64,000 bases of DNA from Naegleria gruberi. Lineage: Eukaryota. Positions 5,697 through 62,890 of this stretch are shown piece after piece; position 1 is the first letter of the stretch; each line of letters starts with the position of its first letter. The DNA is taken from NCBI GenBank assembly GCA_000004985.1, contig GG738905.1, one strand, 5' to 3'. A program made the translations under genes and the position numbers. Below the pieces are notes generated by a model, which saw nothing but the letters and a program-made list of their open reading frames with translations, ran no database searches and was not told where the DNA came from.

Positions 5697-5968
5697 TGTA
5701 TGTCAAAATGCCAAAGTCTTCATCTTCTGAATATGATTCAAAGAAAGTTGCCTAATTTTTGAGGGATGAGAATTGATGGATTGAAAGCCTCCATCTCATT
5801 GAGAATGAGCATTGACAATAATAGTGGAATCATTCAATGTCGATTTGAAACTATTTCAAATAAATTTCGAGTTGGAATCTGCTACTTTTTTTAAGTGTTT
5901 GGTGATAAACGTTGGGTCAATTTGTTACTTTCCATTTTGAGGAGTCATGCAGATTTCTTGAATGAAAG
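5697..5968 (+). repeat. repeat A copy 1 (about 270 bp), directly abutting the retroelement's left end
   Basis: about 93% identical to 10149-10418 (aaagtcttcatcttctgaatatgattcaaagaaagttgcc...gatttcttgaatgaaag). Confidence 0.85.
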
Positions 5969-27300: not shown

Positions 27301-27944
27301 TCATTGAGTGGCATATCATTATCTTCCATTAATAAACTAGCTAATTCCTTATTCTTGAAAGAAGAAAGTTTTTTCTTTTTCAAAATTCTAATTGGTTTCT
27401 CTGCAATAGAATCAATCTTTTCTGGTGGTGGTTCTAATCCACGACTAATTAATTCCTCACGTAAATCTCTTTCAACTTTCTTTTGATCTTCCATATCTTT
27501 TGCAGATTTATAACGACGAGCACGTTGTTGATTTTGTTTGGCTCTCGGAGCAGGACCATCAACAGCCATGAATAAAACTTTTCTTGGTCTGATGGCTGCA
27601 TAAATTCTCTCTACATATTCAAAGATCTTTTCATACATTTCTTCTTCTGTTTTAGGTGCTTCTTCATCTTCTGGATGGCAACAAGGGTGAATAATACCAT
27701 TCATATCCAAATATAAATTATCAAATTCTTTTCCGTTAGGATTTGGTTTGGTTGTATCAATTCCTTGGGTTACAATTCTAACAGTCTTCTTTTTAATGGT
27801 TGGTAATTGTCCATCAGCAACCTCAAAATCATCATAATTTGATGAAATTGTTGTTTTTTGTACTGTAGGTATTTCTTCAACACATTCCGATACAATATTT
27901 GGATATTTCTCTGTTAAATATCTATATAATCCTGGTACACCCAT
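24336..27944 (-). CDS. XRN-family 5'-3' exoribonuclease (1202 aa) with RD/RN-rich and SPY-repeat C-terminal tail
   Basis: N-terminus MGVPGLYRYLTEKYP plus conserved XRN_N acidic residues (LYLDMNGIIH, FMAVDGPAPRAKQNQQRARR, GEGEHKIMDFIR, HGLDADL). The tail has RNDNRDNRNYDRGDR and repeated SPYS/SPYA units. Confidence 0.9.
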   Translation of the reverse strand: MGVPGLYRYLTEKYPNIVSECVEEIPTVQKTTISSNYDDFEVADGQLPTIKKKTVRIVTQGIDTTKPNPNGKEFDNLYLDMNGIIHPCCHPEDEEAPKTEEEMYEKIFEYVERIYAAIRPRKVLFMAVDGPAPRAKQNQQRARRYKSAKDMEDQKKVERDLREELISRGLEPPPEKIDSIAEKPIRILKKKKLSSFKNKELASLLMEDNDMPLNEEFEDSNNNQEEEEDEYFEIHPAGDNWDSNVITPGTPFMYRLGKALRYFIHMKLTTDEGWKKVKIILSDANVPGEGEHKIMDFIRSQREMKGYNPNTSHVIHGLDADLTMLALATHEPYFYNLREKVNFGKNSGGKGYDVEKKNSGAHPYEYKPLEILHISVLREYLEIELLQETDRLPFQYEFERGLDDFVFICFFVGNDFLPHLPSLDIREGAIDLLLALYKESLPVMGGYLTENGDVNVSRVQYLLKQVSEYEDKIFSVREKREEYFKKQQEQRKREQKERKDQSYKPEGVEIVPILKEHRGKFGHITNPYEDFRKKQGLENTPEKSFLGKRKKDEEENEELEEEAPVEKKLKETEEQPSEPSSTATTSVEGAASSSISKMDSKQYQDSLKLRLDEAKNVDTEKFPDTVKLGSQGWKERYYKDKMDINIGTDEYWDVSLKYLEGLVWVFRYYYTGCDSWDWFYPYHFAPFASDMAMVDSSKLGLNFKKGQPYKPFSQLLGVLPPRSSHALPPCYRELMLSDDSPIINYYPTDFKIDLNGKTKTWMGVCLLPFIDQEELQAAIKTVEPKLSSEEKERNTLGNTTLYVHFEHPLQNSIMSCYLDDSSFVDFNKASKDVAGTFRQDPLSVAPSDMVKVPWKADLLDDVAETAAVSACFDFPLVEKSKCKYIAKLLPNVTLPPRMLPTILDSGSVPVVIGQNGEKTVTFCSSREMIDNIMNGKPRNNYLSFRRNGGGGRHDYNNRERVDFSRSGNFHNRNRGDNNYQRNDNRDNRNYDRGDRSNYQRNDNRDYQRNDNRDDRNNSYRNNSDRNYDNNRNDNNNRYNRDYSGDRNNNRNYSDRNDNRNDNRNENRNYGGDSRYQRRDDSYDRGQRTNPPNYQNSPYSSNSNNNYQKSPYSSTPQTSPYAPSPYASSTPQQSPYSQSPYAATVAAQQSPYSTTANNNQQPSNQQPSTSPYSQARQSPYASQQNNYGGNRNANTYSQSERRI

Positions 27945-28078: not shown

Positions 28079-31000
28079 TCAAATTCTTAGCATGTTGAAA
28101 ACTTCCTTCTTGAGGGAATCTAATAGGATTGGTTTGTAAATGACAGAGTCAAAACCATGACCCACTAGAGTATCAACACTTTCCCAAGTATTGGCTGTAA
28201 TGGCTAAAATTGGTGTTTGTTTTTCAGTTTCGTTTTGTTTCTCTGCTTTACGAATCATTTCACATGCTTCCTTACCTGAAAGAATTGGCATGAAACAATC
28301 CAACAAGATAATGTCGTACTTCTTTCGTTTGTACATGTTGAAACATTCCATTCCATCACAGGCTACATCAATATCTTTAAATCCAATAACTCTTAGCATT
28401 TTGGTGAGGATTTTCCTATTAACTGCATTATCATCTACAACAAATATTGATTTCTTACTAATGTCAGGTCGAATAGGACTGGATGGGTGGTGAGATTCTG
28501 ATCTTTCACTTGTTGGAGAGGCTGTTTCTACTCCCAAGAATGTTGGCATGCTGCCTACTTCAACAATTGATTGTCTTGGGGTACAACTGGCTTTCTTGCA
28601 ATGTGCATTGTGCGGTTTCTCTTTCAACACCAAATCAGCCAAATCAACAAACTTGATCGGTTTGGTCAGGTATGAGAAAGTTTGATGATGTCTTGTTTCT
28701 CCTCTGAATATTGAAGGAATTATCATGCAATTCAATTGTTCCACAAATCTAGTGCCTTGAATTTGAGTACAGAACGATTCTGGGCAGAAAATCATATATT
28801 TACAGGAATGATCTGCAACATGGAGAATATTTTCAGATTCTTGAACAAAATCTGCATGAGTTTCAAAATCTTGAATAAGCACAACTCGTTTGAACAAGTT
28901 CAAATAGGAAGACAGTACTTGTCTAAAAACTGGATCCTCATCAATAATGATAATACTCAAATCTTGTGATTGATCTTCACTTAGAACGTCCAATAAATTT
29001 TCTGGATTCAAATTAATGTGAGTTGAGGAAGAAGAGCCTTCAGAATCTGTAACTTGCTCTTGTTTGTCCATTTCTTCGAGAGGGATATAGACGTTCATTG
29101 TTGTTCCTTCTCCTACTCTTGAGTTGACAATAATCTTTCCTTCCATTTTCTCAATAATTTGCTTAGTAATATTCAATCCAAGTCCATTTCTATTGGTATT
29201 GATGAGACTACTTCCTCCATTGTTCAATTTTGTAAATTCTGATTGTTTAAAGTAGTGCTCGAATCCTTGGGTCTTTTCTTGTTTTTCTATAATGTGGAAT
29301 GGTTTGAATAAACTTCCAATTTGAGACTCTGAGATACCACATCCATTATCTTGACATTCAATCTTGAGATAGAAGCAATTCTTCTTAATTTCCTCTTCTT
29401 GGAAGTGTAGTTTCAATTCCTCATCCTTTGCCTTTTTACATTTGAGCAGGACTTGACCTCCCTTAGTATACTTGATCGAATTTGAAACCAAATTCATTAC
29501 AATTTGACTGATCCTCACAGAATCTCCCATTAAAAACATTGGTACTTTGGAAACATCAAAGAATGAATGTAAAGTATTCTTCTTTTCAATTGCTAATGGA
29601 GAAAATACACAAGTTATGGATTCTATCAAACACATGACATTAAATTGTTCCACCTTCAGTTTGATATTTCCAATTTCCATTGAACTCATTTGAAGAGAAG
29701 AGGATAGGATGTGTAATAAGAGTGCCGCATTTTCATGAACATCATTAATCATTTCTGAGAAGGAAGCGTTTGAAACCATGCAATGTTTACAACTCTCTGA
29801 ACAATCTTCACTCTTATAAATATTCTTAATTAATTCTACGGAACCAATAATGGCATGAAGTGGATTTCTCAATTCATGAGATAGTGATGCAATAAATCTC
29901 GTCTTTTCATAATTTGAAACTCTTTCCTTTGCAATTTCTACTTGATGACTAGTGTACTGATTATTTTTCTCTGTCAAGTGTTTGGAGAAGAAGAAAGATC
30001 CGATTAATACTGTATTCTGAATTACAAACACTTCCAACACTTTAACATAAAAGTCTGCTCTTTCCTTCTCACTCAGTAAATCGTACCACATGTAAAAAGA
30101 AGTAAGTAAGGAAATGGTGGTGAAAGCAATCAATTGCCCACATCCAAATAATATATAACTAGACTTGTAATAAAACGACATGGACACTACAAAAATCTTA
30201 AATGTTGTAATGATATGCATAGGACTTAATGGTCCATACTTGATTTGCATTGCAATTTGTACAAAATCAGCAAGAGATATTCTCGATAAGTTAATCATGG
30301 AAAAGGCATGTAAGGTTGTAACCTTATCTAATATAATGTTCACGCCCATATGTATAAAATGTTCCACAACTAGTACTATAACGAAGAATAACGGTCCTAT
30401 ATCCCATGATGCTATTGCTCCAAATATAATTGGCATGATGGCCAGATAGGACCCGACTGTTGAGTGGCAACTTTGTTGTTGTTTCACTTGTTGTAAATCT
30501 ACTTCGTCTTTGATCGCTGCTGATGAATTAGCACTCCCTGCTGTGGAAGATGAAGGAGATGGAGGAACTGAATTGTTATTGGTGGTGGTAGATGAAGAAT
30601 TATTAGTTGGACTATTTGAAGAGTATTTGGCCTTAATAGAAGAGGATGGCGATTCGGGGGCCATCTCTTCCTGGTTTGGCATTCTCTTCACCACAATATT
30701 GCCATTACTTGTTTGATGGTCTAATTTTCGGAAATTCTTACTTTTCATTATTGAGGCACTCATTGGTGATGAGAAATTCATATTATTTCTTATGCTATTG
30801 ATGGTGCCTGATCTTCTATCCTTCTTTAATTGTTGTTGAGTGGCCACAGTGTCAAATTTGTCTTGAAGAAGTGAAGGAGGAGTTAAGGAAGGTGAAGATG
30901 TACTCGTTGTTTGTGGGGAAGAGGATGATGAGAGAAATTCATCATCTATTGCTTCCATAGTTGGTGTTGTTGCTGCATTAAAAGTGTTGTTATTATCATC

Positions 31001-31213
31001 TTCATCTTTATGAGGGACGGAAATTCGGATGGGAGAATTAGGTTTATAGTGATGAGAATTGTTGTTCGTTCTCACTGAACCTTCTTGTTCATTATTGAAA
31101 CGATCATCACCACCAATTGATGTTGTTGTTATTATATTGGAACTATTTGATTTGAAATTGGATATCAAAGATGTTGTCATGACTATGATGGCCGTGGAAG
31201 TTATCTTTTTCAA
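28079..31213 (-). CDS. hybrid sensor histidine kinase (TM region + HisKA + HATPase_c + receiver domain)
   Basis: H-box SHELRNPLHAIIGS; G-boxes DNGCGISESQIGSLFKPFH and GLGLNITKQIIEKMEG; receiver FVVDDNAVNRKILTKMLRVIGF...DIILLDCFMPILSGKEA...K; several TM helices upstream. Confidence 0.9.
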   Translation of the reverse strand: MKKITSTAIIVMTTSLISNFKSNSSNIITTTSIGGDDRFNNEQEGSVRTNNNSHHYKPNSPIRISVPHKDEDDNNNTFNAATTPTMEAIDDEFLSSSSSPQTTSTSSPSLTPPSLLQDKFDTVATQQQLKKDRRSGTINSIRNNMNFSSPMSASIMKSKNFRKLDHQTSNGNIVVKRMPNQEEMAPESPSSSIKAKYSSNSPTNNSSSTTTNNNSVPPSPSSSTAGSANSSAAIKDEVDLQQVKQQQSCHSTVGSYLAIMPIIFGAIASWDIGPLFFVIVLVVEHFIHMGVNIILDKVTTLHAFSMINLSRISLADFVQIAMQIKYGPLSPMHIITTFKIFVVSMSFYYKSSYILFGCGQLIAFTTISLLTSFYMWYDLLSEKERADFYVKVLEVFVIQNTVLIGSFFFSKHLTEKNNQYTSHQVEIAKERVSNYEKTRFIASLSHELRNPLHAIIGSVELIKNIYKSEDCSESCKHCMVSNASFSEMINDVHENAALLLHILSSSLQMSSMEIGNIKLKVEQFNVMCLIESITCVFSPLAIEKKNTLHSFFDVSKVPMFLMGDSVRISQIVMNLVSNSIKYTKGGQVLLKCKKAKDEELKLHFQEEEIKKNCFYLKIECQDNGCGISESQIGSLFKPFHIIEKQEKTQGFEHYFKQSEFTKLNNGGSSLINTNRNGLGLNITKQIIEKMEGKIIVNSRVGEGTTMNVYIPLEEMDKQEQVTDSEGSSSSTHINLNPENLLDVLSEDQSQDLSIIIIDEDPVFRQVLSSYLNLFKRVVLIQDFETHADFVQESENILHVADHSCKYMIFCPESFCTQIQGTRFVEQLNCMIIPSIFRGETRHHQTFSYLTKPIKFVDLADLVLKEKPHNAHCKKASCTPRQSIVEVGSMPTFLGVETASPTSERSESHHPSSPIRPDISKKSIFVVDDNAVNRKILTKMLRVIGFKDIDVACDGMECFNMYKRKKYDIILLDCFMPILSGKEACEMIRKAEKQNETEKQTPILAITANTWESVDTLVGHGFDSVIYKPILLDSLKKEVFNMLRI

Positions 31214-42920: not shown

Positions 42921-44756
42921 TTATAAATTAATCTTGAAAACCTCAATTTCCTTAACTTTGAAATTATTTCTTGTTCCACCATGTAAATAATTTCCAGCTT
43001 GTTGACTTCCTTCCACAATTCCCTCAGGCAATTCGAAAGATCCTCCAAGATTCGAATAAGAATAATCACCTGTAGCACTCTCATTGCAAATATACAAATC
43101 ACAAGGAAATCCATACGAAACTGAATAAATATCTCTCATGAGTACTGAATTACTTTGTTTTCCATTTTGAAGTTTTAACACTTTCAATTCTAGTTGACCA
43201 TTTACATCAATTACCTTAAAAAGGAAGACAGATTCATCTGGAAAGTAGGTTGCATTTTCTGGTGATTGCCAACTAACAGATGTGTAGCCTCCAAATATAT
43301 TACCATGTTCAGATTTGATTAGTGACAGAGTTGGACCTTTGTTGTCACATTTTTCATGGAAGTTTTTCGCACTAAATCCATCTCTGGTAGCTCTATAAAG
43401 AAGTTCGATAGTTGGCTTGCTTTTTGTGAGAGAAATGAGATTTCTGATTAGGTTTTTGTCTGTAATTAGTTTCGAATTGATATGTTCGAAACTAGATGAA
43501 TCATATTCGCAACCATTCCAATTGCATTGATCAAAGAATGTATTAATAAATGAAAATCTAATCAAATTTTGATTGGAAAGGTCAATATTTTGGAAACGAA
43601 TGTCCTTAATTTCTCTCGTTTCGAATAATGAAAAATCAATAAGGCAAGAATCGAATATATTTCCTTCATAAGGTGATAAATCTCTCAATGAATTTCTAAA
43701 ATCAATTCTCTTGAATGTGCATTGTTGAAATTTGGCTTTGAGATTGAAATCCATTTCTTCAAATACTGATTGGTTGAATTGACAATTGACAGCTTCAAAA
43801 CCAGGCACATGAAGCTTCTTGAAATGAGTTCCTTTGATGATACAGTTTGATAACTTTGAATTAGTTAAATTACTTTCCCAAATAATTGCCTTTGTCAAGT
43901 CAACTGAGTCAAAATCAATATTTTCCAAATTAGAATTTGACAAGTTACAGCATGAGAGATCACTGTTCGGTAATATTGCTCTTTTAAATGAAGAACGAGT
44001 AATACTTGAGTGGGCTAAAGTAGTTCTTGTCAAATCACAACCTTCAAAATTACATTCTACCAAGCAGCAATTTTTCAAAGTGGCATTTGACATGTTGCAA
44101 CCACTAAAAACACTTCCTTTCAAATTGGATCTATCTAAAACAATACCACGTAAATCCATTCCACTAAAATTACAATTAGTAAATGTGCAATCTGTCAAAT
44201 TAGCTTTTGCCAATTTTAGCTTTCTCATGTCATAACTGTTTAACCAAACTTTATGCTGAGTTGATTGCATCATTTGGATGAATTCTTTCATGGTAATTGG
44301 ATTGTAATTGTGTGATTCCTGTTTTAGTAATTTTGAAAAGTTGAACATTTGACAGGTGCAGAGAAATTCCTGTTTGATGTCACTTGTGATTTCACCAACA
44401 ATTTTAAACTTTAACCAATTGTAAAGTAATTTGAAAATCTTCGGATCACAATCTATGAAAATTGGTTGATTGGCATTTGACAGTTGACCAGAAATTATTT
44501 TACCAAATTCATTGGCTGGTTCTATTGGATTGTTAATAAAAGTGGTTACGGAAACAGTAAAGAGAGTTCCGCCAACATTCAGAGTAATTGGATCACTCAT
44601 ATGGTTTCCAATACCTTTAGTTTGATTAGTTTCATAATATTCTACTCTTTCATAATTAGTCAATGATTTACTTTGATCAACAAAATTTTGATTAGTATTG
44701 TTTGGTTCTTTCATTTTTTTGAAACTTGTTTTTTGAAATTGATCTCTACAATTCAT
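42921..44756 (-). CDS. KCTD-like BTB/T1 domain + pentapeptide repeats + C-terminal TLDc domain protein
   Basis: BTB PITLNVGGTLFTV...IFIDCDPKIFKLLYNWLKF. Pentapeptide repeats ANLTDCTFTNCNFSGMDLRGIVLDRSNLKGSVFSGCNMSNATLKNC. TLDc LLYRATRDGFSAKNFHEKCDNKGPTLSLIKSEHGNIFGGYTSVSW. Confidence 0.8.
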   Translation of the reverse strand: MNCRDQFQKTSFKKMKEPNNTNQNFVDQSKSLTNYERVEYYETNQTKGIGNHMSDPITLNVGGTLFTVSVTTFINNPIEPANEFGKIISGQLSNANQPIFIDCDPKIFKLLYNWLKFKIVGEITSDIKQEFLCTCQMFNFSKLLKQESHNYNPITMKEFIQMMQSTQHKVWLNSYDMRKLKLAKANLTDCTFTNCNFSGMDLRGIVLDRSNLKGSVFSGCNMSNATLKNCCLVECNFEGCDLTRTTLAHSSITRSSFKRAILPNSDLSCCNLSNSNLENIDFDSVDLTKAIIWESNLTNSKLSNCIIKGTHFKKLHVPGFEAVNCQFNQSVFEEMDFNLKAKFQQCTFKRIDFRNSLRDLSPYEGNIFDSCLIDFSLFETREIKDIRFQNIDLSNQNLIRFSFINTFFDQCNWNGCEYDSSSFEHINSKLITDKNLIRNLISLTKSKPTIELLYRATRDGFSAKNFHEKCDNKGPTLSLIKSEHGNIFGGYTSVSWQSPENATYFPDESVFLFKVIDVNGQLELKVLKLQNGKQSNSVLMRDIYSVSYGFPCDLYICNESATGDYSYSNLGGSFELPEGIVEGSQQAGNYLHGGTRNNFKVKEIEVFKINL

Positions 44757-45300: not shown

Positions 45301-46077
45301 TTAATGAGTGAGCATACAAGTTCTGGCCTTTGATTGATCATTAGAGAATCCAAAAACTGAAACAACAGTTTCAGCAGCTTGCTTTCTATCATAAATACAA
45401 GTAACAATCAAATCCAATGCCTTCATCTTATCATTATCAAATCCAAAAACTCTCAAAACAGAAGCAGCTTCAGTTGAGCTCATTTGACCAATATTGTTAG
45501 TTTGCTTCAATTGAGTCAATGCCTTAACCTTATCATTATCAAAACCGAACAAATTCAAAATGGTGACCAAATCAGCACCACTGACTGGACAACATTGAGA
45601 TGAGGAGTAAGTTTGAACTGCCTTGACCTTATCATTGTCGAATGAAGCATTTCTGCAGGCAGCAATAATTTGTTGAGCCAAAGCACCACTGCTCATTTGT
45701 GGTTGTGGAGAGAATCCAGAGGTTGTGGTAGTTGTGGTTGTGGAGAAACTGGCATTAACAGTTGGTTGTTGGTGATATTGAGGTTGACCGTATTGTTGTT
45801 GAGGTGGGACGTTCATATTAACACCAAATCCTGGCATATTCATGGAAACACCCATTTGTGGTTGTTGTTGGTATTGTGGTTGACCGAAAGATTGTGGTTG
45901 ACCGTATGGTTGTTGAGTTGGAACATTCATATTGACACCGAATCCTGGCATATTCATGGAAACACCAACTTGTGGTTGACCATAAGGTTGATTTGGTTGC
46001 ATATTCATATTAACACCCATTTGTGGTTGACCATATGGTGGTTGATTAGGAGTACCCATGCCAAAGTTAAAATTCAT
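45301..46077 (-). CDS. prion-like G/Q/P/N/M-rich N-terminus + four DUF4476-like repeats (FGFDNDKxKA)
   Basis: likely start MNFNFGMG at 46077; repeats SFDNDKVKAV / FGFDNDKVKAL / FGFDNDKMKAL / FGFSNDQSKA. Confidence 0.6.
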   Translation of the reverse strand: MNFNFGMGTPNQPPYGQPQMGVNMNMQPNQPYGQPQVGVSMNMPGFGVNMNVPTQQPYGQPQSFGQPQYQQQPQMGVSMNMPGFGVNMNVPPQQQYGQPQYHQQPTVNASFSTTTTTTTSGFSPQPQMSSGALAQQIIAACRNASFDNDKVKAVQTYSSSQCCPVSGADLVTILNLFGFDNDKVKALTQLKQTNNIGQMSSTEAASVLRVFGFDNDKMKALDLIVTCIYDRKQAAETVVSVFGFSNDQSKARTCMLTH

Positions 46078-46508
46078 TTTTGTGTGATTTGATTTGATTG
46101 TTGGACTCGAATGAGTTGTTGATTTGTTTTTTTTACTGTTGTGTGATCTTGTTGTGAAGAGATATTTATTATGCGTCCACTGTAATATCAATCGGCTTGT
46201 GTGTTACTTGCAATTCACATTACAGTGGTTGCATACAGGTCACCACATGGGAGTATGTAACATTGGTTATTGACTCAAGTCATTGGTTATTGTAAAATAT
46301 GACAGATTACTGTGCTCGGAGGGTAAAACACATCGGGTAGTGAATAGCGAGCGCGATGAAACTCCTCTTACATTGAATTACAAATAAATATTAAATAATT
46401 TATGATAGATATCGAGATTTAACACTCCATTGCGGAATGTGGTACTAGAACTGACATGTTGGTTGAGTAGAAAATTCCACTACAGAACTGGAATAGGTTG
46501 ATAAAAAA

Positions 46509-49500
46509 TTAGAATCGATTAGATGAGGTAATTAGTAATTCCAAAGCTTCAACCCAATCACTACGATCTTCTTCTGAGGCAGCATTGAAAACAAATGTTC
46601 TATTGAGGGTTGATAATTTAAAGCAATTAGCCCTTCCGGCTTCCTTTTCAATTTCAGGTGCCATTTGAATACGTGTTCCTCTGAGTGCAACACTCTTAAT
46701 TGGTTTTGGATCTCCTTGATTCTTATAATAGGAAAGCTGGTATTGGTTTGCTTTACCACCTTCGAGTGGTTCAAGTGCCATGAAACGCTTCTTCCACGAT
46801 TTGAATCCACCACCTTGTTTAATCAAGTAACCATTCTTGTTCTTTGCCTTTTCAAATTTCAAATCTGATGAACCACCACTACTGAGAATTGATTCACTTC
46901 TCGATTTGTTTGATGAAATGGAACCAATAGCAGATCCTCTCACACTCGTCTTTACAACAGCAGATCTGCCAGTGGTGGTTGAGGATGAAGCTGAACTACC
47001 ACCCGACTTTTCTGAACCCATGAGTGGATTAATTGTAACTGTAAATTCAGGTTCATAATCAACATCGTCAGACACAGATGAAGTTATTGATGAATTAGCA
47101 GTAGAAGATGAGGTAGTCATTGGATTTGAAGCAACAACAGTTGTACGGAGACGAACTGTGGCACGTTTCTTTTGGGTTGTTTTGGTTTCATCATCATTTG
47201 AAGAGTGGGAAGTGAACATTCCACGAGACTTGTTTGGAGAACTCAATTGAATATCATCTTCATAGTAATCAGTGGATTCCTCTGAGAATGATGAAGTACT
47301 TCCTCTACTGATGTTGTTGGTATTACTATTATTGGTGTCATTATTAGATGTGGCACTTGTTGGAGGAGGAGAGGTCATAATGATGGAACCACTTGTACCA
47401 ATAACACGGGAATTAGTAGGAGTGGAAGGTGATGGTGATTGGTTGTTTGAAGCTTGTTGTGGAGTTGTGTTTGGAGTGGCAGCTTCAGTTGGTGGTTTTA
47501 CAACAACAGTTCTCCTCACTACACGAACAATCTTCTTTGGTGCACCAGTTCCATTTTCATCAGTTTCACCACTAATGGATGGACGAGGTTGTGAATTTTC
47601 AGGTGGAAGAGCAACATGTTTTGGTTCTGAAAGTCTTGGTTGTTGTTGTTCTGGTTCAGTTGGTTTGACTTTCTCTGGTTCTTTCTGTACAACAACTGGT
47701 TTGGCTTTTGCAAGTTCTTCCTTTTCCTTCTCGAGGGTTGCAACTTTTTGCTCTTGTTCAAGTTTTTCACGCATGACACTTTGAAGTTGTTTCTTTAATT
47801 CTTCAACTTCAGAGGTGAGCTCAGAAACAGTAGAATTCAAGACATAAACTTGCTCTTCAGTTTGTTTGATTGATTTTTGGCTATCCTTTTCCAATTTTTC
47901 ATATTTTGATTTGTATTGAGAAAGTTCCTTCTCCAACTTTTTAGCATGATCATTGGCAGAGTCAAACTTGCCTTCCAATTCAGCTTTGGAGACTTCAAAT
48001 TCATCCTCCTTGTCTCTCAATTGTTGCTCCAAATCATTGATGGTGTTTTGCTTTTCTTCCATTTGATCTGAAATTTCCATAATTTCATTTTGTAAGGTGA
48101 GCTTTTCTTGCTTTTGTTTCTTGACTGCTTCCTCCAAATCTTGTTGATACTTCTTTTGGAGTTCTTCAATTGTTACATTCTTTTGGTTTTCAATTTCAGA
48201 AATCTTTCTTTCTTGTTGCTTGATTTGTTGACAGTGCTTTTCATTAATTTCCTTGATCTTTTCATTGGTTTCAATTTCGAATTGAGTTTCAACACGTTTA
48301 CGCTCATCTTCAACAGCCTTATTCTTTTCCAATTCTAAGGAGCTCTTTGTTTGTTGGATAAGAATTTGGGATTTTTGTCGTTCTTCCTTCAAGGAAATGT
48401 CCAATTCCTCAGCCTTGGTCTTGGCTTCACTCCATTCATTTTTGATAGCAGCAATTTCACTCTCCTTGTCTTCAATCTTCTTTTCGGCTTGAGACGTTTT
48501 TTCTGCTTGTTCAGAGACAAGTTTTTTCACTTGAGAAACTTCCAATTCGTGAGCAGATTTCAAAGTTTGTTCAAGAGTTTCCAATTCCTTCTTGTGTGAA
48601 ACTTTGAGTTGGTTGGTGGTTTCAACTTGAACTTCCAAATCTGATTTGACAGAACTCAATTCCTGTTGGGTTGATTGAAGACTTGCCTTGGTTGTTGCTA
48701 CCAGTTCCTTCTCATTTTGGAGATCCTTCTTGATTTGATCACGTTCTTCAACCAATTTTTGGTATTGACTCTCCTTCTCAGAGATGATAGAATTCAATGA
48801 TTCAATCTTGGTTTGAAGTTCCTTACGTTCTACATTGAATGATTCGACACTAGAGAGATTTGAAGTAACCATTGAGTTCTTATCTGATAATTCCTGCTCC
48901 AATTTACTCTTTGTAGTTTCGAGAGCAGTAACCTTTTCTTCGTAGGTTGTTTTGATGGTTTCCAATTCTGACTTGGATTCTCTCAATTTCTTTTCAGCGG
49001 CCTCAAGATCTTGAGTTAACTTGTCAATCTTTCCTTGAGCATTGGATTTTTCTTCAGACATATTCTTGTTAAACTCATCTTGCAACAATTGAACTTGTTG
49101 TTGGTGTTGTTTTTGTTGGGAGATTTTTTCACTTTCAAAAGTCTTTTCCAATTTTTCTTTTGACTTTTCGGCAGCTTCCAAACTGGCAACAGCCTGTTCA
49201 TGCTTTTGCTTCCATTCTAAGAGTTCTGCAGTTTCAGTGGCGAGCTTACCCTTGATTGTTTCAAGTTCTTCAGAAATGGATTCCTTCTCCTTACCAATCT
49301 TTTCCAAATTGTGTTGTAAGCTGGCAATTTCTTGTTGGAGCTGATTCTTTTGTTTAAGTTTTTCATCTTCCAATTGAGTGACTGTTTCTGAAAGTTCCTT
49401 GATTCTTTGCAAGTTTGTGTTATTTTGACTGTCGAGAGCTGTTGATGATTCAACATTCTTTTCTTGCAAGTTATTGATTTGTTGTTGGAGTAAATTAGCT

Positions 49501-52500
49501 TCCTCAGCTTTGGTCTTGAGTTTGTTCTCTGTATTGCTCAACTGCTCTTGCAAGGAGATGATATTTTGTTTGTATTCACTTTCCTTCTTGGAAGCCTCTT
49601 CTAAACTTGTCTTGATTTGAGTAATTGTACTCTCTGACTTGACCTTTTCAGTAGTGAGGGTTTCATTTTGCTTTTCAGCTCTTTCAGCACGATCACGAAG
49701 TTTGATAGCTTCTTCCTTCTTTTGTGAGAGTTGGGATGAGAGATCTTCAATTTCTTTCTTGAGCTCAGTGTTGCTGTTAGTCAAGTTTTCAATAGCAATT
49801 GAATTTTCTGAGATTTTAGCATTCAAGATTTGAATTTCCTTATTCTTTTCTTCAATTGTCTTTTCGAGTTTGGAAATTGATTCTTGGGAGGATGAAAACT
49901 TTCTCTCCAAATCAGAAACCTTGGATTGTTCTTCGGAGAGCTTGGTTTCACTCTCTTTGAGTTTAGTTTCTAGAGAGGACTTTTCAGACTTAAGAGTGGA
50001 AATTTCTTGTTCCTTTGTTGAAATTGTATTTTGCAAGGTTGAAATAGATTCCTTTCCACTTTCAATACTCTTGTTGAGAGCTTCAATTTCCTTCTCCTTT
50101 GTAGCGATTTGGTTGTTAAGAGTATCAATAGAGGTCTTATTTTGTGAGATGGTTGTTTCCAAATCCTTCTTCAACTTTCTTTCTTCCTCTAATTGATTTT
50201 CAACATTTTCCAAATCTGATTTAGATTGTTTGAGGTTGTCCTTCAAGGTATTAATGTTATTCTTGAATTGTTCAACTTGATTACCCAAATCGTCGTTTTC
50301 CTTTTGAATGGTCGAAATCTTTAACGATGATTCTTGTTCTTGCTTTTCTAAATTTACAATCTTGAGAGACAATTCGCTGGCAGCTTGCTTTTGCTTGTCA
50401 AGTTCTTGTTTGAGGTTGTTCTTTTCCTCTAGTGTCTTGTTCATATCATCCTTCAATTTGGAAATTTCCTTCTTGGCTTCTTCTAATTGGTTATTGATAC
50501 GAGTCATGTTCTTTTCATTTTCAATTTGAATGAGAGAGAGTTGATTCTTGGCTGTTTCAATAATGGATGGTCCCATAGTATCAAAAAGAGCGCTTTGGGC
50601 AGCTGTACACAGTTGCTTGACATCAGTTGTGAGTTTTTCTCTAACTTCAGCTTTAGCACGTTTAATTTGTTTGGAGAGAAGTACAATCTTGGAGGAAACA
50701 GATACCTTATATGATTCATGATTAGATTCAAGCTTTTTCTTTTGTTCTGAGAGGTTTTCAACTTCTTTCAACTTTTCAGAGATGGTATTGTTCAATGTTT
50801 GTAATTCCTCGATTTGTTTCTTAATCAAATTTTCATCATCACTATTCTTCTTTTTCAACTCTTGTTCTGACAATTTAATGGCATTCAATTGAGTTTGAAG
50901 AAGTTCGATTTGATCCTTCAAGGATGTATTGACTTGATTCAATGATTGATATTGAGATGACAATTCTTCTAAGTTGCCTTGGAGCGTCTTAATTTGTTGT
51001 TTTTGAGCATGATATTCCTTCTCAGTTTCTTGCAATTTCTTCAAATCAGTAGCAACAGATGCTGTTATTTTTAACAATTTCAATAATTCAATTCAATTAA
51101 TAATAATATACTTACAAATCAATTGATCGGCTGTGTTATCAATAGTCTTGGTGATTTGTTCTACAGGTACATTATCTTGTTTGTCGGAGACTTTTTCGTT
51201 TGCACCTTCTTCTGATTCAGTTCCATAAGGTGTTAAATTTTCAGATTTTACACCCCTGATTACAACATTCTTCAATGTTGAATCAGCAAACTCTAAATTG
51301 TCTGTTGTAAACTGAGCAGCATGTGGAATGGCAGGAGAACAATTTACAACTGTTGTTGTACAAGTGTTGTGCAATGAACGAGAATAGAGAATAGCAGATA
51401 AACTCGAAGAATAGAATTGACTATCATCTTCTTGTGCCTTTGGATCATTAATCAATGTGCACAAATCATAGAAGGTCAAGTGACCATTTTCCAATTCTTC
51501 CATTTCTTCTTCAGAGACACCAACCAATGGAGATTCCAAATCTATAACAGTTAATTTGCTGTTGACTACCTTTTGCTTATTATTGTCCTTTTGTTGCACA
51601 GTTAATTCTACAAATAAGTTGGAGGCAAACTTGGTTTCCTTCTTTACCTTTTCCAATTTTCTCTTTCCGATACAAGATGCCAAAATTTCCAACAATTCAT
51701 CATCAGCACCAACATATTGTTCAATCAGGCCATTAATTTCAATCTCTTGAGTTTCTTCCTGAAGTAAACATTCCAAACCATTGAATTCTTTAATAATTAA
51801 AAAATTATTCAAAAATCCAGGATGATATGTTATTGTTGTTGTTGTTGTTGAAGAAGAAGAAGAATATTCCGAGATGAATTATATTATCAGGATGAAGTAA
51901 ATTTGTTTTTTACAGTAAATTTTAAAAACAAACAAAAAGGGCGCCAAACAATTAAAACATGTAAAATAATGACTTACCTTCAGAGCCTTGTTGTTGCACG
52001 TGAGTTTCATTCAACAAATCGCAAATAATACCACTTCCACTCCAAACCTCATAGACACTCACCTTGATAGTAAATTCCAAACTCTCATCACTCTCCACAA
52101 TAGCATCAAATACACCTCTAACAAAACGAGGTAAAACACCATCATTTTCCTTTTCTTCTTGCCAATCAATGATAGAGGCTGGATTAACAGCTTCCGAACC
52201 AAACATGGTGAAGGTTTTACCAGACTTTGGTGGAGCTCCCCATGAGAGGAAGGTTACATTCTTACCAGACATGAAGGTGGAAATCATAGGCTTGGCTACT
52301 TCATCATATATTTCCTGTTGAGAGGTGTTCATGTTGAAAACACGATCAAATTGATACTCTTTAGGTTGTTCCACACCATACTATAGTATTATTGTTATTG
52401 TTGTTAGCATTATTATTATTTAGTAGCATATGTTGGAGAAAAGAGATGAAGGAGAAATTATTGTTCATAGTATAAGAGTTCCACATCATCAATAATTATA

Positions 52501-52815
52501 TTAAATAGTAGTAAAATTGTGTTCATTTCATCATCGTACGACATTAAAACATAATCATCACCATTAAATACAAATTTCATAACGATTTGAGCATGATCGG
52601 ACATTTTGGATGCATTATAATTTCATCATAATAATTATTAATACAAGTGAATTAATTCACTTTGCTTACCTTCAACAATAACTTTTTACCAGACTTGTGA
52701 AAAGCAGCACAACATTTTGTAGCATCTTCTTTGACTGCTGTTGGTGGATCAATGGCTAACACATGAGGCCTGAAACGAATGAAAAGTCTGAGTTTTTCAT
52801 CCGATGTTGCCATGT
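46509..52815 (-). CDS. kinesin-like motor (divergent) + about 1,300-aa coiled coil + C-terminal PH domain; at least 4 exons (about 52815-52670, 52378-51981, 51797-51113, 51056-46509)
   Basis: Exon 1 encodes MATSDEKLRLFIRFRPHV. Motor core YQFDRVFNMNTSQQEIYDEV...GKNVTFLSWGAPPKSGKTFTMFG...GVLPRFVRGVFD...KVSVYEVWSGSGIICDLLNE. Later degenerate switch motifs YSRSLHN and LTVIDLESP. Donor/acceptor pairs found by hand (GTAAGC, GTAAGT, GTAAGT). C-terminal PH GYLIKQGGGFKSWKKRFMALE...RSDWVEALELLI. Confidence 0.7.
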
Positions 52816-55665: not shown

Positions 55666-55906
55666 GCGGATTAACAATTGTGTATGATTTGCATTTTTTT
55701 AAAATCAAAAGAAAATGCTTTGGCGGGAAGCTTATTGGACTAAATTTCACACAATAAATCATCTTCATCAGGAGATTTACTTGTTCATTTGGAAATTCAT
55801 CGAGCCACATCAGTTCTGAGGTTGGAGACAACTTGGGAACCTGTGGTGCTGCAGTCTCTCTACCTTATTACTTTTTTTGTGTTTGGATTCTGTCATAAAA
55901 AGGTAA

Positions 55907-55978
55907 ATATCAGGGAAGGAGTTGAACCTCCGCCGAATCGTTAACAGCGACTCATGCTTACCACTACACTACCTGAAA
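55907..55978 (-). tRNA. tRNA-Asn (anticodon GUU), 72 nt, no encoded CCA
   Basis: Hand fold of TTTCAGG-TA-GTGT-AGTGGTAA-GCAT-G-AGTCG-CTGTTAA-CGATT-CGGC-GGAGG-TTCAACT-CCTTC-CCTGATA-T. This gives a 7-bp acceptor (one mismatch), D arm with GG, anticodon loop CU-GUU-AA, and T arm GGAGG/CCTTC with TTCAACT loop. Confidence 0.6.
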
Positions 55979-56263
55979 TACCCCATCAAAGCTCTAAAAA
56001 TTCTGAGCTAATTGACAAATTTAATTTTAGTACTGAGAGTTCCATTTGCAGAATTTAATAAACTTACTTTAAATTGCCAAGTGTATTAAGAAACGAACAA
56101 ACTAGACTGTTACAGGGCAGAATTCGGTGCTGTATCTTTGCAATTGTTGATGTCAAGAAGCTAAAATATATTTGGTAAATCACTCTTTACCTTACAGAAT
56201 GCTGGAATGACTTGTTATAAAATATTAAATTAAAAGATATTCGAAATATAATACATTTTATGG

Positions 56264-61099: not shown

Positions 61100-61632
61100 G
61101 GGGTTTGGGTTTGGGGTTGGGGTTGGGGTTGGGTTGGGTTTGGGTTTGGGTTTGGGTTTGGGTTTGGGTTTGGGTTTGGGTTTGGGTTTGGGTTTGGGTT
61201 TGGGTTTGGGTTTGGGTTTGGGTTTGGGTTTGGGTTTGGGTTTGGGTTTGGGTTTGGGTTTGGGTTTGGGTTTGGGGTTTGGGTTTGGGTTTGGGTTTGG
61301 GTTTGGGTTTGGGTTTGGGTTTGGGTTTGGGTTTGGGTTTGGGTTTGGGTTTGGGTTTGGGTTTGGGTTTGGGTTTGGGTTTGGGTTTGGGTTTGGGTTT
61401 GGGTTTGGGTTTGGGTTTGGGTTTGGGTTTGGGTTTGGGTTTGGGTTTGGGTTTGGGTTTGGGTTTGGGTTTGGGTTTGGGTTTGGGTTTGGGTTTGGGT
61501 TTGGGTTTGGGTTTGGGTTTGGGTTTGGGTTTGGGTTTGGGTTTGGGTTTGGGTTTGGGTTTGGGTTTGGGTTTGGGTTTGGGTTTGGGTTTGGGTTTGG
61601 GTTTGGGTTTGGGTTTGGGTTTGGGTTTGGGT
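61100..61632 (+). repeat. telomere-like hexamer array (TTTGGG)n, about 88 perfect units, with degenerate TTGGGG/TTGGG units at the proximal (left) junction; continues into the gap
   Basis: directly visible: ...gagGGGTTTGGGTTTGGGGTTGGGGTTGGGGTTGGGTTGGGTTTGGG(TTTGGG)n; the G-rich strand reads 5'->3' toward the gap. Confidence 0.9.
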
Positions 61633-62890
61633 NNNNNNNNNNNNNNNNNNNNNNNNNNNNNNNNNNNNNNNNNNNNNNNNNNNNNNNNNNNNNNNNNNNN
61701 NNNNNNNNNNNNNNNNNNNNNNNNNNNNNNNNNNNNNNNNNNNNNNNNNNNNNNNNNNNNNNNNNNNNNNNNNNNNNNNNNNNNNNNNNNNNNNNNNNNN
61801 NNNNNNNNNNNNNNNNNNNNNNNNNNNNNNNNNNNNNNNNNNNNNNNNNNNNNNNNNNNNNNNNNNNNNNNNNNNNNNNNNNNNNNNNNNNNNNNNNNNN
61901 NNNNNNNNNNNNNNNNNNNNNNNNNNNNNNNNNNNNNNNNNNNNNNNNNNNNNNNNNNNNNNNNNNNNNNNNNNNNNNNNNNNNNNNNNNNNNNNNNNNN
62001 NNNNNNNNNNNNNNNNNNNNNNNNNNNNNNNNNNNNNNNNNNNNNNNNNNNNNNNNNNNNNNNNNNNNNNNNNNNNNNNNNNNNNNNNNNNNNNNNNNNN
62101 NNNNNNNNNNNNNNNNNNNNNNNNNNNNNNNNNNNNNNNNNNNNNNNNNNNNNNNNNNNNNNNNNNNNNNNNNNNNNNNNNNNNNNNNNNNNNNNNNNNN
62201 NNNNNNNNNNNNNNNNNNNNNNNNNNNNNNNNNNNNNNNNNNNNNNNNNNNNNNNNNNNNNNNNNNNNNNNNNNNNNNNNNNNNNNNNNNNNNNNNNNNN
62301 NNNNNNNNNNNNNNNNNNNNNNNNNNNNNNNNNNNNNNNNNNNNNNNNNNNNNNNNNNNNNNNNNNNNNNNNNNNNNNNNNNNNNNNNNNNNNNNNNNNN
62401 NNNNNNNNNNNNNNNNNNNNNNNNNNNNNNNNNNNNNNNNNNNNNNNNNNNNNNNNNNNNNNNNNNNNNNNNNNNNNNNNNNNNNNNNNNNNNNNNNNNN
62501 NNNNNNNNNNNNNNNNNNNNNNNNNNNNNNNNNNNNNNNNNNNNNNNNNNNNNNNNNNNNNNNNNNNNNNNNNNNNNNNNNNNNNNNNNNNNNNNNNNNN
62601 NNNNNNNNNNNNNNNNNNNNNNNNNNNNNNNNNNNNNNNNNNNNNNNNNNNNNNNNNNNNNNNNNNNNNNNNNNNNNNNNNNNNNNNNNNNNNNNNNNNN
62701 NNNNNNNNNNNNNNNNNNNNNNNNNNNNNNNNNNNNNNNNNNNNNNNNNNNNNNNNNNNNNNNNNNNNNNNNNNNNNNNNNNNNNNNNNNNNNNNNNNNN
62801 NNNNNNNNNNNNNNNNNNNNNNNNNNNNNNNNNNNNNNNNNNNNNNNNNNNNNNNNNNNNNNNNNNNNNNNNNNNNNNNNNNNNNNNNNN
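61633..62890. other. assembly gap (1258 N)
   Basis: run of N; ORF-track entries 61071-63953, 61088-62983, 61096-63012 and 61134-62948 are artefacts of translating N and hexamer repeats. Confidence 1.

What the first reader, a model, noticed from the sequence alone, without database searches (positions are those of the whole stretch)
46509..52815. Degenerate kinesin motor joined to a very long coiled coil and a C-terminal PH domain
Hand-reconstructed exons give an N-terminal kinesin motor (IRFRP, GKNVTFLSWG...GKTFTM, KVSVYEVW..DLLNE) whose catalytic motifs deviate from consensus. The P-loop GQTGSGKT is replaced by GAPPKSGKT (one-residue insertion). Switch I SSRSH is replaced by YSRSLHN. Switch II DLAGSE is replaced by IDLESP, losing the invariant Gly. 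It is followed by ~1,300 aa of heptad coiled coil and a PH domain. The PH tail recalls kinesin-3/Unc104 cargo binding. The motor looks ATPase-impaired. This may be a pseudo-kinesin tether that binds microtubules and phosphoinositide membranes without motility.
Basis: partly seen in the sequence, partly recalled or inferred. Interest (0 to 1): 0.6.

Follow-up and report, generated by a model that had tools for sequence, protein, structure and literature searches.

The report
Conserved dead-kinesin, coiled-coil, PH-domain protein
This Naegleria gruberi gene encodes a kinesin-like head that has lost the residues needed to burn ATP and, it seems, to grip microtubules, joined to a very long coiled coil and a lipid-binding PH domain; it belongs to a small conserved family that has been listed but never studied.

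Summary
The gene is real. It has four exons on the minus strand (52813-46509), GT-AG introns of 289, 190 and 54 nt, and encodes 1,923 aa. The window is Naegleria gruberi.

The protein has four parts:
- a kinesin-fold head (Pfam PF00225, E 5e-37, only 128 bits against 361-383 for canonical motors);
- about 1,100 aa of coiled coil;
- about 310 aa of disordered linker;
- a PH domain (E 3.7e-19) with a TAPP1-like phosphoinositide-binding motif.

Its "switch I" (YSRSLHN) is really helix alpha5. True switch I (SSRSH) is absent altogether.

The six basic residues examined at the kinesin-1 microtubule interface are also replaced, and loop L8 and the L11-alpha5 segment each carry net charge -9. Microtubule binding is therefore not supported.

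The head is nevertheless the most conserved part of the protein: 81% identity to a sibling species, dN/dS about 0.06. The same degenerate architecture occurs in Willaertia magna and in at least two environmental sequences.

Wickstead et al. 2010 list one N. gruberi "KISc-PH, divergent, family not determined" kinesin, probably this gene.

Best reading: a hydrolysis-dead pseudo-kinesin head on a phosphoinositide-anchored coiled-coil tether, with an unknown binding partner. It is a new variant of a known kind and of moderate interest.

The parts
46509..52813 (-). Whole gene: ATG at 52813, stop codon at 46511-46509, 1,923 codons
   Evidence: Reconstruction; conserved in the sibling species
52670..52813 (-). 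Exon 1 (aa 1-48). Includes the N4 motif RFRP (52766-52777) and the family-specific KCCAAFHKSGKKLLLK
   Evidence: Willaertia P0006 reads straight across the exon 1/2 junction
52381..52669 (-). Intron 1: 289 nt, GTAAGC..TATAG, 25% GC
51978..52380 (-). Exon 2. Includes the P-loop GAPPKSGKT (52213-52239) and an extended L5
   Evidence: The exact exon ORF is seen in an ENA metagenome (P0020)
51788..51977 (-). Intron 2: 190 nt, GTAAGT..AAAG, phase 1
   Evidence: same position and phase in the sibling species
51116..51787 (-). Exon 3.
51062..51115 (-). Intron 3: 54 nt, GTAAGT..ACAG, phase 1
   Evidence: the equivalent intron in the sibling species is 95 nt
51255..52813 (-). Kinesin-fold pseudo-motor head (aa 1-360, interrupted by introns 1 and 2)
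   Evidence: PF00225 E 5e-37, 128 bits. 81% identity to the sibling species, dN/dS about 0.06. An AF2 model of family member P0010 has TM 0.80-0.83 to kinesin-1
47781..51152 (-). Coiled-coil stalk, about aa 395-1500 (interrupted by intron 3). One proline (P571) lies in a conserved break
   Evidence: Heptad periodicity above a shuffled null. Only sub-threshold coiled-coil Pfam hits
46851..47780 (-). Disordered S/T/N/P-rich linker (aa 1501-1810) with two conserved basic strands: KKIVRVVRRTVVVK (47496-47537) and KKRATVRLRTTVV (47133-47171)
46536..46850 (-). PH domain (aa 1811-1915). The beta1-beta2 motif GYLIKQGGGFKSWKKRFMAL lies at 46773-46832
   Evidence: PF00169 E 3.7e-19. Closest PDB relatives are the TAPP1 C-terminal PH and DAPP1. 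Family alignment

Best explanation
This is a functional N. gruberi gene for a kinesin-derived pseudo-motor. It belongs to a small family found so far in Heterolobosea (two Naegleria-like species and Willaertia magna) and in unnamed environmental protists.

Shown:
- The head keeps the kinesin fold, the Walker-A GKT, the adenine-pocket motif RFRP and Asp231.
- It lacks switch I (SSRSH), the gamma-phosphate-sensing Gly234, the Glu236/Arg203 salt bridge, the neck-linker Asn-latch and the six basic microtubule-contact residues examined.
- Its former microtubule face is strongly acidic.
- It is nevertheless the most strongly constrained part of the protein.

Inferred:
- The head cannot hydrolyse ATP or step. 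At most it holds nucleotide as a static cofactor.
- The head now acts as a binding module for an unknown, probably basic, partner rather than for canonical tubulin.
- The roughly 1,100-aa stalk dimerises the protein into a rod that would be about 160 nm long if the coiled coil is continuous.
- The C-terminal PH domain, on a flexible linker of about 310 aa, anchors the rod to membranes rich in PI(3,4)P2, PIP3 or PI(4,5)P2.

Overall the protein would work like a long coiled-coil tether or scaffold, similar in layout to EEA1 or a golgin. One end is held on a phosphoinositide-marked membrane and the other presents two dead-kinesin heads.
For: - Gene model and organism.
- Kinesin homology with a low score: 128 bits against 361-383 for canonical motors.
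- Motif-by-motif alignment with kinesin-1 and four canonical kinesins: GKT, RFRP and D231 are kept. S201, S202, R203, H205, G234, E236, N327, K237, K252, R278, K281, R284 and R321 are all lost in N. gruberi and lost or aligned to gaps in the other family members. Net charge is -9 for L8 and -9 for L11-alpha5, against 0 to +5.
- Purifying selection: head 81% identical with dN 0.13 at saturated dS, against 55% for the stalk and 38% for the linker.
- The neck is variable in length between the orthologues.
- The family shares the head, coiled-coil and PH architecture and the same losses: sibling species, Willaertia KAL9656503.1, JGI P0018 and locus L003.
- Invariant core residues across the family.
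- A family head is modelled confidently as a kinesin fold.
- PH domain; PPBM motif definition in PMC4746654.
- Coiled coil.
- Canonical N. gruberi kinesins keep all the motifs lost here.
- Naegleria amoebae have no cytoplasmic microtubules (PMC9036621).
- Precedent for a kinesin-related protein that works without microtubules: Smy1p (PMC2141741, PMC4966985).
Against: - Nothing here measures binding or catalysis.
- Loss of canonical contact residues does not prove loss of microtubule binding. Costal2 lacks R278 yet binds microtubules (PMC2141741), and KIF26B lacks the catalytic motifs yet sits on microtubules (PMC3387196).
- Naegleria makes cytoplasmic microtubules as a flagellate, and its mitotic tubulins are divergent with reduced negative charge. 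An acidic head could therefore have co-evolved with them.
- Two prolines in the N. gruberi P-loop may abolish even nucleotide binding.
- The partner of the head, the lipid specificity, dimerisation and the expression stage are all unknown.
- The AF2 model used an alignment containing canonical kinesins and is of a homologue, not of this protein.
Confidence: 0.5

Rival explanations
1. One reading: a static, rigor-like link between microtubules and membrane. The dead head still binds microtubules, for example the cortical array of the flagellate or the divergent mitotic tubulins. The PH domain binds membrane, and there is no motility.
For: - The kinesin fold is kept and strongly constrained.
- The precedents KIF26A/B lack catalytic motifs but bind microtubules constitutively (PMC3387196).
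- Costal2 binds microtubules without R278 (PMC2141741).
- Naegleria mitotic tubulins reportedly have reduced negative charge.
Against: - All six basic contact residues examined are non-basic in N. gruberi, and non-basic or aligned to gaps in every other family member. The L8 and L11-alpha5 faces each carry net -9 in N. gruberi.
- L11 and alpha4 are shortened.
- Canonical N. gruberi kinesins keep PYRDSKLTR.
- Amoebae lack cytoplasmic microtubules (PMC9036621).
Confidence: 0.3
2. A Smy1-like cofactor. This is a more specific version of the best explanation, in which the dead head and stalk recruit or regulate an actin-based motor or an actin assembly factor on phosphoinositide-marked membranes in an actin-driven amoeba.
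For: [quoted passage not shown] Its head, coiled coil and tail together enhance binding of myosin V to cargo (PMC2141741, PMC4966985).
- Naegleria amoebae rely on actin and lack interphase microtubules (PMC9036621).
Against: - No sequence link to Smy1 was tested.
- No myosin- or formin-binding motif was identified.
- The case rests entirely on analogy.
Confidence: 0.12
3. A still-active, unconventional ATPase motor that uses non-canonical catalytic residues.
For: GKT, RFRP and D231 are invariant across the family, so nucleotide may still bind.
Against: - Switch I is absent, and is deleted outright in Willaertia and P0018.
- There is no Gly234, no Arg203-Glu236 pair and no Asn327.
- The neck differs in length between orthologues.
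- The N. gruberi P-loop contains two prolines.
Confidence: 0.03
4. A decaying pseudogene, or a gene-model artefact that fuses two genes.
For: The Pfam score is low. My exact model is not in the protein collection.
Against: - The reading frame of 1,923 codons is intact.
- Intron positions and phases are conserved between species, and head dN/dS is about 0.06.
- Single uninterrupted proteins with head, coiled coil and PH domain exist in Willaertia and in a JGI metagenome.
Confidence: 0.02

Closest known systems
Smy1p (S. cerevisiae kinesin-related protein)
   Same: A divergent kinesin-like head followed by a coiled coil and a tail. It deviates in both the catalytic pocket and the microtubule-binding sites, and it functions without microtubules (PMC2141741, PMC3387196).
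   Different: Smy1p has no PH domain and a much shorter stalk, and it retains R278. Homology beyond the shared kinesin fold was not tested here.
KIF26A/KIF26B (kinesin-11) and Costal2/KIF7
   Same: Non-motile kinesins that lack the IFAYGQT and DLAGSE motifs and serve as scaffolds (PMC3387196, PMC10585591, PMC5881503).
   Different: They still bind microtubules and are metazoan signalling scaffolds. They have no long coiled coil plus PH layout. The protein studied here has also lost the basic microtubule interface.
Unc104/KIF1A (kinesin-3)
   Same: An N-terminal kinesin head and a C-terminal PH domain that binds phosphoinositides on cargo.
   Different: Kinesin-3 is an active motor with SSRSH, DLAGSE, a K-loop and an FHA domain. 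None of these is present here. Wickstead et al. left the N. gruberi KISc-PH protein unclassified as 'divergent'.
Kinetoplastid KISc-PH kinesins (tabulated by Wickstead et al. as X2 for the Leishmania entry and discussed as kinesin-X1)
   Same: A KISc-PH architecture in another Discoba lineage. It is judged to have arisen independently of kinesin-3.
   Different: Those motors score much higher against the kinesin HMM (for example 244 against -61 on the scale used in that paper). The relationship to this family could not be tested here.
EEA1 and golgin-type coiled-coil tethers
   Same: The overall layout: a lipid- or membrane-binding domain at the C-terminus, a coiled-coil rod of about 1,000 aa or more, and a globular binding module at the N-terminus.
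   Different: There is no homology, and those proteins bind Rab or Arl GTPases. The analogy rests on my own knowledge and was not tested.
TAPP1 C-terminal PH and DAPP1 PH domains
   Same: These are the closest solved PH domains (E 5e-9 and 1e-8). They share the KQG...K[KR]R[FY] motif.
   Different: Lipid specificity cannot be read from sequence. Those domains sit in small adaptor proteins.

Membership tests
Kinesin superfamily (homology and fold) | Significant match to the kinesin motor domain profile over most of its length | tested here: met
   PF00225 E 5e-37, 128 bits against a cut-off of 29.3, profile positions 25-323 of 327. PDB kinesin-1 hit at 2.4e-21. A family member models as a kinesin fold with TM 0.80-0.83.
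Catalytically competent kinesin motor | P-loop GQTxxGK[ST] | tested here: inconclusive
   The sequence is GAPPKSGKT. GKT is kept and APPKSGKT still fits [AG]x4GK[ST], but Gln86 and Thr87 are lost, there is a one-residue insertion, and two prolines are present. Other family members read GGISSGKT, GGKTTGKT and GDAMTGKT.
Catalytically competent kinesin motor | Switch I SSRSH | tested here: not met
   The aligned position reads TKFAS in N. gruberi and is deleted in Willaertia and P0018.
Catalytically competent kinesin motor | Switch II DLAGSE (Gly234 and Glu236) | tested here: not met
   The sequence is DLESPL. Gly234 becomes S, A or E in all six family members. Position 236 is L, R or Q in the five members that have a residue there.
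Catalytically competent kinesin motor | Basic microtubule-contact residues (K237, K252, R278, K281, R284, R321 of KIF5B) | tested here: not met
   All are non-basic in N. gruberi. In the other family members each is non-basic or aligns to a gap. L8 carries net -9 and L11-alpha5 net -9.
Catalytically competent kinesin motor | Neck-linker Asn-latch with the neck coil directly following | tested here: not met
   N327 becomes S, T or L. About 35-45 poorly conserved residues, variable in length, precede the coiled coil.
Kinesin-3 (Unc104/KIF1A) | FHA domain after the neck | tested here: not met
   There is no FHA hit in any part of the protein.
Kinesin-3 (Unc104/KIF1A) | Lysine-rich K-loop in L12 | tested here: not met
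   L12 reads DPKAQEDDSQ, which is net acidic.
Kinesin-3 (Unc104/KIF1A) | Motor groups with kinesin-3 in a phylogeny | not tested
   No tree was built. Among the 60 best PDB sequence hits (147 in all at E up to 1), kinesin-1 ranks first, followed by kinesin-5, and no KIF1A chain appears. Wickstead et al. left Naegr_71914 as 'ND, divergent'.
Kinesin-11 (KIF26, Smy1, VAB-8) | Motor groups with kinesin-11 in a phylogeny | not tested
The resemblance is functional (a dead motor) only.
PH domain, phosphoinositide-binding class | PH fold profile plus the motif K-X-Sm-Xn-[RK]-X-R-Hyd-Hyd in beta1-beta2 | tested here: met
   PF00169 E 3.7e-19. The sequence is KQG-GGFKSW-KKR-FM, and the motif is conserved in all five family PH domains and aligned with TAPP1. 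Motif definition in PMC4746654. Lipid binding itself cannot be tested here.

The most novel reading that the evidence does not exclude
Heterolobosean amoebae, which have no interphase microtubules, carry a conserved family in which the kinesin motor fold has been exapted. Catalysis and tubulin binding are both gone. The former microtubule face has become a conserved acidic surface for a new partner. The head sits on a phosphoinositide-anchored coiled-coil tether about 160 nm long. This would be a family-level case of a cytoskeletal motor fold repurposed as a microtubule-independent pseudoenzyme.
Probability: 0.4. Interest if true: 0.65.

Novelty: new variant of a known kind. Interest (0 to 1): 0.45.

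Why it matters
Dead or non-motile kinesins such as KIF26, Costal2/KIF7 and Smy1 are few, and they are known mainly from animals and yeast. This finding points to a separate family conserved across species in a distant eukaryotic lineage. In it both the catalytic switches and the microtubule-contact residues are gone, yet the head is under strong purifying selection. The host cell has no cytoplasmic microtubules for most of its life. If the head proves to bind something other than tubulin, it would be a clear case of a motor fold evolving into a new interaction module. It would also identify a candidate membrane tether in Naegleria, a genus that includes the pathogen N. fowleri. The claim can be tested directly with one recombinant domain.

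Tried and rejected
- The word-indexed homology search was insensitive for this protein. It returned 3 and then 12 hits and failed to recover even known family members.
- A scan of metagenome contigs with a family alignment failed twice: first no usable pattern, then 260 pattern hits with none confirmed.
- Identifying the organism from the neighbouring XRN gene failed, because the best hits were only 43-55% identical and came from across eukaryotes. Exact look-up of neighbouring ORFs then gave N. gruberi.
- My 1,923-aa model and most of its exon ORFs are not in the protein collection as exact sequences, so the annotated accession could not be retrieved.
- My early impression that the genome was dictyostelid was rejected.
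- Literature searches for pseudo-kinesins and for Naegleria or heterolobosean kinesins with PH domains found no study of this family.
- Expression data for jgi_71914 in the 2024 Naegleria time-course supplement lie beyond the stored part of the file.
- Single-sequence AlphaFold of the Willaertia protein gave an uninterpretable head with pLDDT about 25-35. The run supported by an alignment was done on the homologue P0010, not on the window protein.
- Kinesin-3 membership was considered and rejected (no FHA, no K-loop). The pseudogene and two-gene models were considered and rejected.
Full report
**The gene and its source**

The minus strand between 52813 and 46509 carries four exons: 52813-52670, 52380-51978, 51787-51116 and 51061-46509. 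They are joined by GT..AG introns of 289, 190 and 54 nt with 15-25% GC. The product is 1,923 aa long.

Six neighbouring ORFs are exact matches to annotated Naegleria gruberi NEG-M proteins on a 290,827-bp scaffold. One of them, EFC38784.1/D2VX05, lies immediately upstream. My first impression of a dictyostelid genome was therefore wrong.

The four-exon model has independent support:
- An orthologue rebuilt from two contigs of a related species (L002 plus L001, 1,979 aa) has introns at the same positions and phases.
- Homologous proteins read straight across each junction. Willaertia P0006 has KCCAAFHKNGKNILLKYGV across junction 1/2, and P0018 and P0008 cross junction 2/3.
- Proteins with head, coiled coil and PH domain in a single chain exist in Willaertia magna (KAL9656503.1) and in a JGI metagenome (P0018). 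In locus L003 the head ORF is directly followed by a 707-aa coiled-coil plus PH ORF.

**What the protein contains**

- Residues 39-352 match the Pfam kinesin motor domain at E 5e-37, but with only 128 bits. Two canonical kinesins scored in the same way give 361 and 383 bits, and other family members give 69-99.
- The best solved relatives are kinesin-1 heads at 2.4e-21, followed by kinesin-5 and KIF4. No KIF1A chain is among the 60 best hits.
- A heptad signal above a shuffled null runs from about residue 395 to 1500, with a single proline. Only sub-threshold coiled-coil families and no FHA domain are found there.
- Residues 1501-1810 are S/T/N/P-rich and poorly conserved (38% identity), apart from two basic strands.
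- Residues 1811-1915 are a PH domain at E 3.7e-19.

I aligned the head with human KIF5B and four canonical kinesins from the searches.

- P-loop: confirmed as GAPPKSGKT, where canonical kinesins have GQTxxGKT.
- Switch II: confirmed as IDLESPL, where canonical kinesins have VDLAGSE.
- Switch I: not confirmed. YSRSLHN lies downstream of switch II and aligns with kinesin-1 RILQDSLGGN in helix alpha5. At the real switch I position the protein reads KETKFASNLF, and Willaertia and P0018 simply delete that loop.

SSRSH, Gly234, the Arg203-Glu236 pair and the neck-linker Asn327 are all missing. RFRP, the GKT of the P-loop, Thr94, Gly97 and Asp231 stay invariant across the family.

**The microtubule face**

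Six KIF5B residues were examined: K237, K252, R278, K281, R284 and R321. The first five are microtubule contacts described in the alanine-scan literature cited in PMC2141741. All six are non-basic in N. gruberi, and in the other family members each is non-basic or aligns to a gap.

L11 and alpha4 are shortened. Net charge in N. gruberi is -9 for L8 and -9 for L11-alpha5, against 0 to +5 in the canonical sequences.

This is not a general adaptation to Naegleria tubulin. Canonical N. gruberi kinesins printed in the Wickstead alignment keep SSRSH, DLAGSE and PYRDSKLTR.

**Selection and family**

Against the sibling species, synonymous sites are saturated. The head is 81% identical (dN 0.13, dN/dS about 0.06). 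The stalk is 55% identical, the linker 38% and the PH domain 62%. The dead head is therefore the most constrained part of the protein. The segment between the head and the coiled coil differs in length between the two species.

An exhaustive HMMER search of 1.84 billion representatives with the exon 3 translation found only 15 proteins at E below 1e-3:
- Six are family members: P0001 (the sibling species), P0004 (the cluster that includes the longer P0018), P0005, Willaertia P0006, P0008 and P0010.
- The rest are ordinary kinesin-1-like motors near E 1e-5.

Every family member lacks SSRSH and Gly234 and carries the signature [FY][FY]xx[SA]Lxxx[LM][FY]SRxxxN in place of PYRDSKLTRLLQDSLGGN.

An AlphaFold model of member P0010, built on a 25-sequence alignment, is confident (pLDDT 85.7) and superposes on kinesin-1 heads at TM 0.80-0.83. 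Two caveats apply: the alignment contained canonical kinesins, and P0010 is a homologue rather than the window protein.

**The PH domain**

Its closest solved relatives are the TAPP1 C-terminal PH domain (5e-9), SKAP55, DAPP1 and myosin X.

The beta1-beta2 segment KQG-GGFKSW-KKRFM fits the Lys-X-Sm-Xn-[Arg/Lys]-X-Arg-Hyd-Hyd motif associated with 3-phosphoinositide binding. Its end points are nearly identical to those of TAPP1 (KQG and KRRYF; PMC4746654). The motif is conserved in all five family PH domains. Binding itself is an inference.

**Mechanism**

Shown:
- a conserved family with a kinesin-fold head that lacks the hydrolysis and switching apparatus and the canonical tubulin-binding residues;
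- a coiled coil of about 1,100 aa;
- a flexible linker;
- a PH domain with a lipid-binding signature.

Inferred:
- The protein is a dimeric rod, about 160 nm long if the coiled coil is continuous (1,100 aa at 0.148 nm per residue).
- It is anchored by its C-terminus to phosphoinositide-rich membrane.
- It presents two dead heads that bind an unknown, probably basic, partner and perhaps hold nucleotide statically.

I rate this reading at about 0.5. It stays open for three reasons. KIF26B binds microtubules without catalytic motifs (PMC3387196). Costal2 binds microtubules without R278 (PMC2141741). Naegleria mitotic tubulins are reported to be less acidic. An active motor and a pseudogene are both very unlikely.

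**What is already known**

Additional file 3 of Wickstead, Gull and Richards (2010, PMC2867816) lists 39 N. gruberi kinesins. Exactly one has the architecture KISc-PH: Naegr_71914. Its family is marked 'ND' and it is flagged 'divergent', with an HMM score of -61 on their scale. It was therefore left out of their phylogeny.

This is very probably the present gene, although I could not verify its coordinates. I found no paper that analyses it, and none that reports the family, the lost microtubule interface or the selection pattern.

The closest functional precedents are:
- Smy1p, a divergent kinesin head that works without microtubules;
- the kinesin-11 and Costal2 type of non-motile scaffolds.

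Unc104/kinesin-3 shares only the head-plus-PH idea and fails every kinesin-3 feature that I tested.

**Verdict**

The finding is a new variant of a known kind (a pseudo-kinesin), previously catalogued but uncharacterised. It is of moderate interest and can be tested directly with a recombinant head and PH domain.

Noticed in passing
window 61101-62890: About 89 near-perfect copies of GGGTTT (61101-61632) run directly into an assembly gap of Ns (61633-62890). This could be a telomere-like array, marking either a chromosome end that was mis-joined in the scaffold or an interstitial telomeric repeat.
   Followed up: partly
window 5962-9927 (+): A 1,321-aa ORF ends in a tyrosine-recombinase domain (Phage_integrase, E 2.8e-9). 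It may be a DIRS-like retroelement.
   Followed up: no
window 28079-31213 (-) and 24336-27944 (-): A hybrid histidine kinase (HisKA, HATPase_c and receiver domains) lies next to a single-exon XRN 5'-3' exoribonuclease. The best homologues of the XRN gene are only 43-55% identical and come from all over the eukaryotes.
   Followed up: partly
window 42921-44756 (-), 45301-46191 (-), 55906-55979 (-): Three further features: a protein with pentapeptide repeats and a TLDc domain; a Q/P/M-rich protein with two DUF4476 repeats immediately downstream of the pseudo-kinesin gene; and a tRNA-Asn(GTT).
   Followed up: no
L002 4772-5650 (-) and L001 6474-8386 (-): In the sibling species a different PH-domain gene lies head-to-head with the pseudo-kinesin gene, and two bacterial-type SH3_3 genes lie downstream. 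Neither flank is syntenic with N. gruberi.
   Followed up: no
window 47133-47171 and 47496-47537 (-): Two basic, beta-strand-like motifs (KKRATVRLRTTVV and KKIVRVVRRTVVVK) are conserved between species inside the otherwise fast-evolving disordered linker. They may be contacts for the acidic head or regulatory sites.
   Followed up: partly
PMC2867816 Additional file 3 (not in the window): Ten of the 39 N. gruberi kinesins in that catalogue are flagged 'divergent / ND'. They include a KISc-MORN and a KISc-kinase-SAM architecture, so degenerate kinesin heads may be common in this genome.
   Followed up: no
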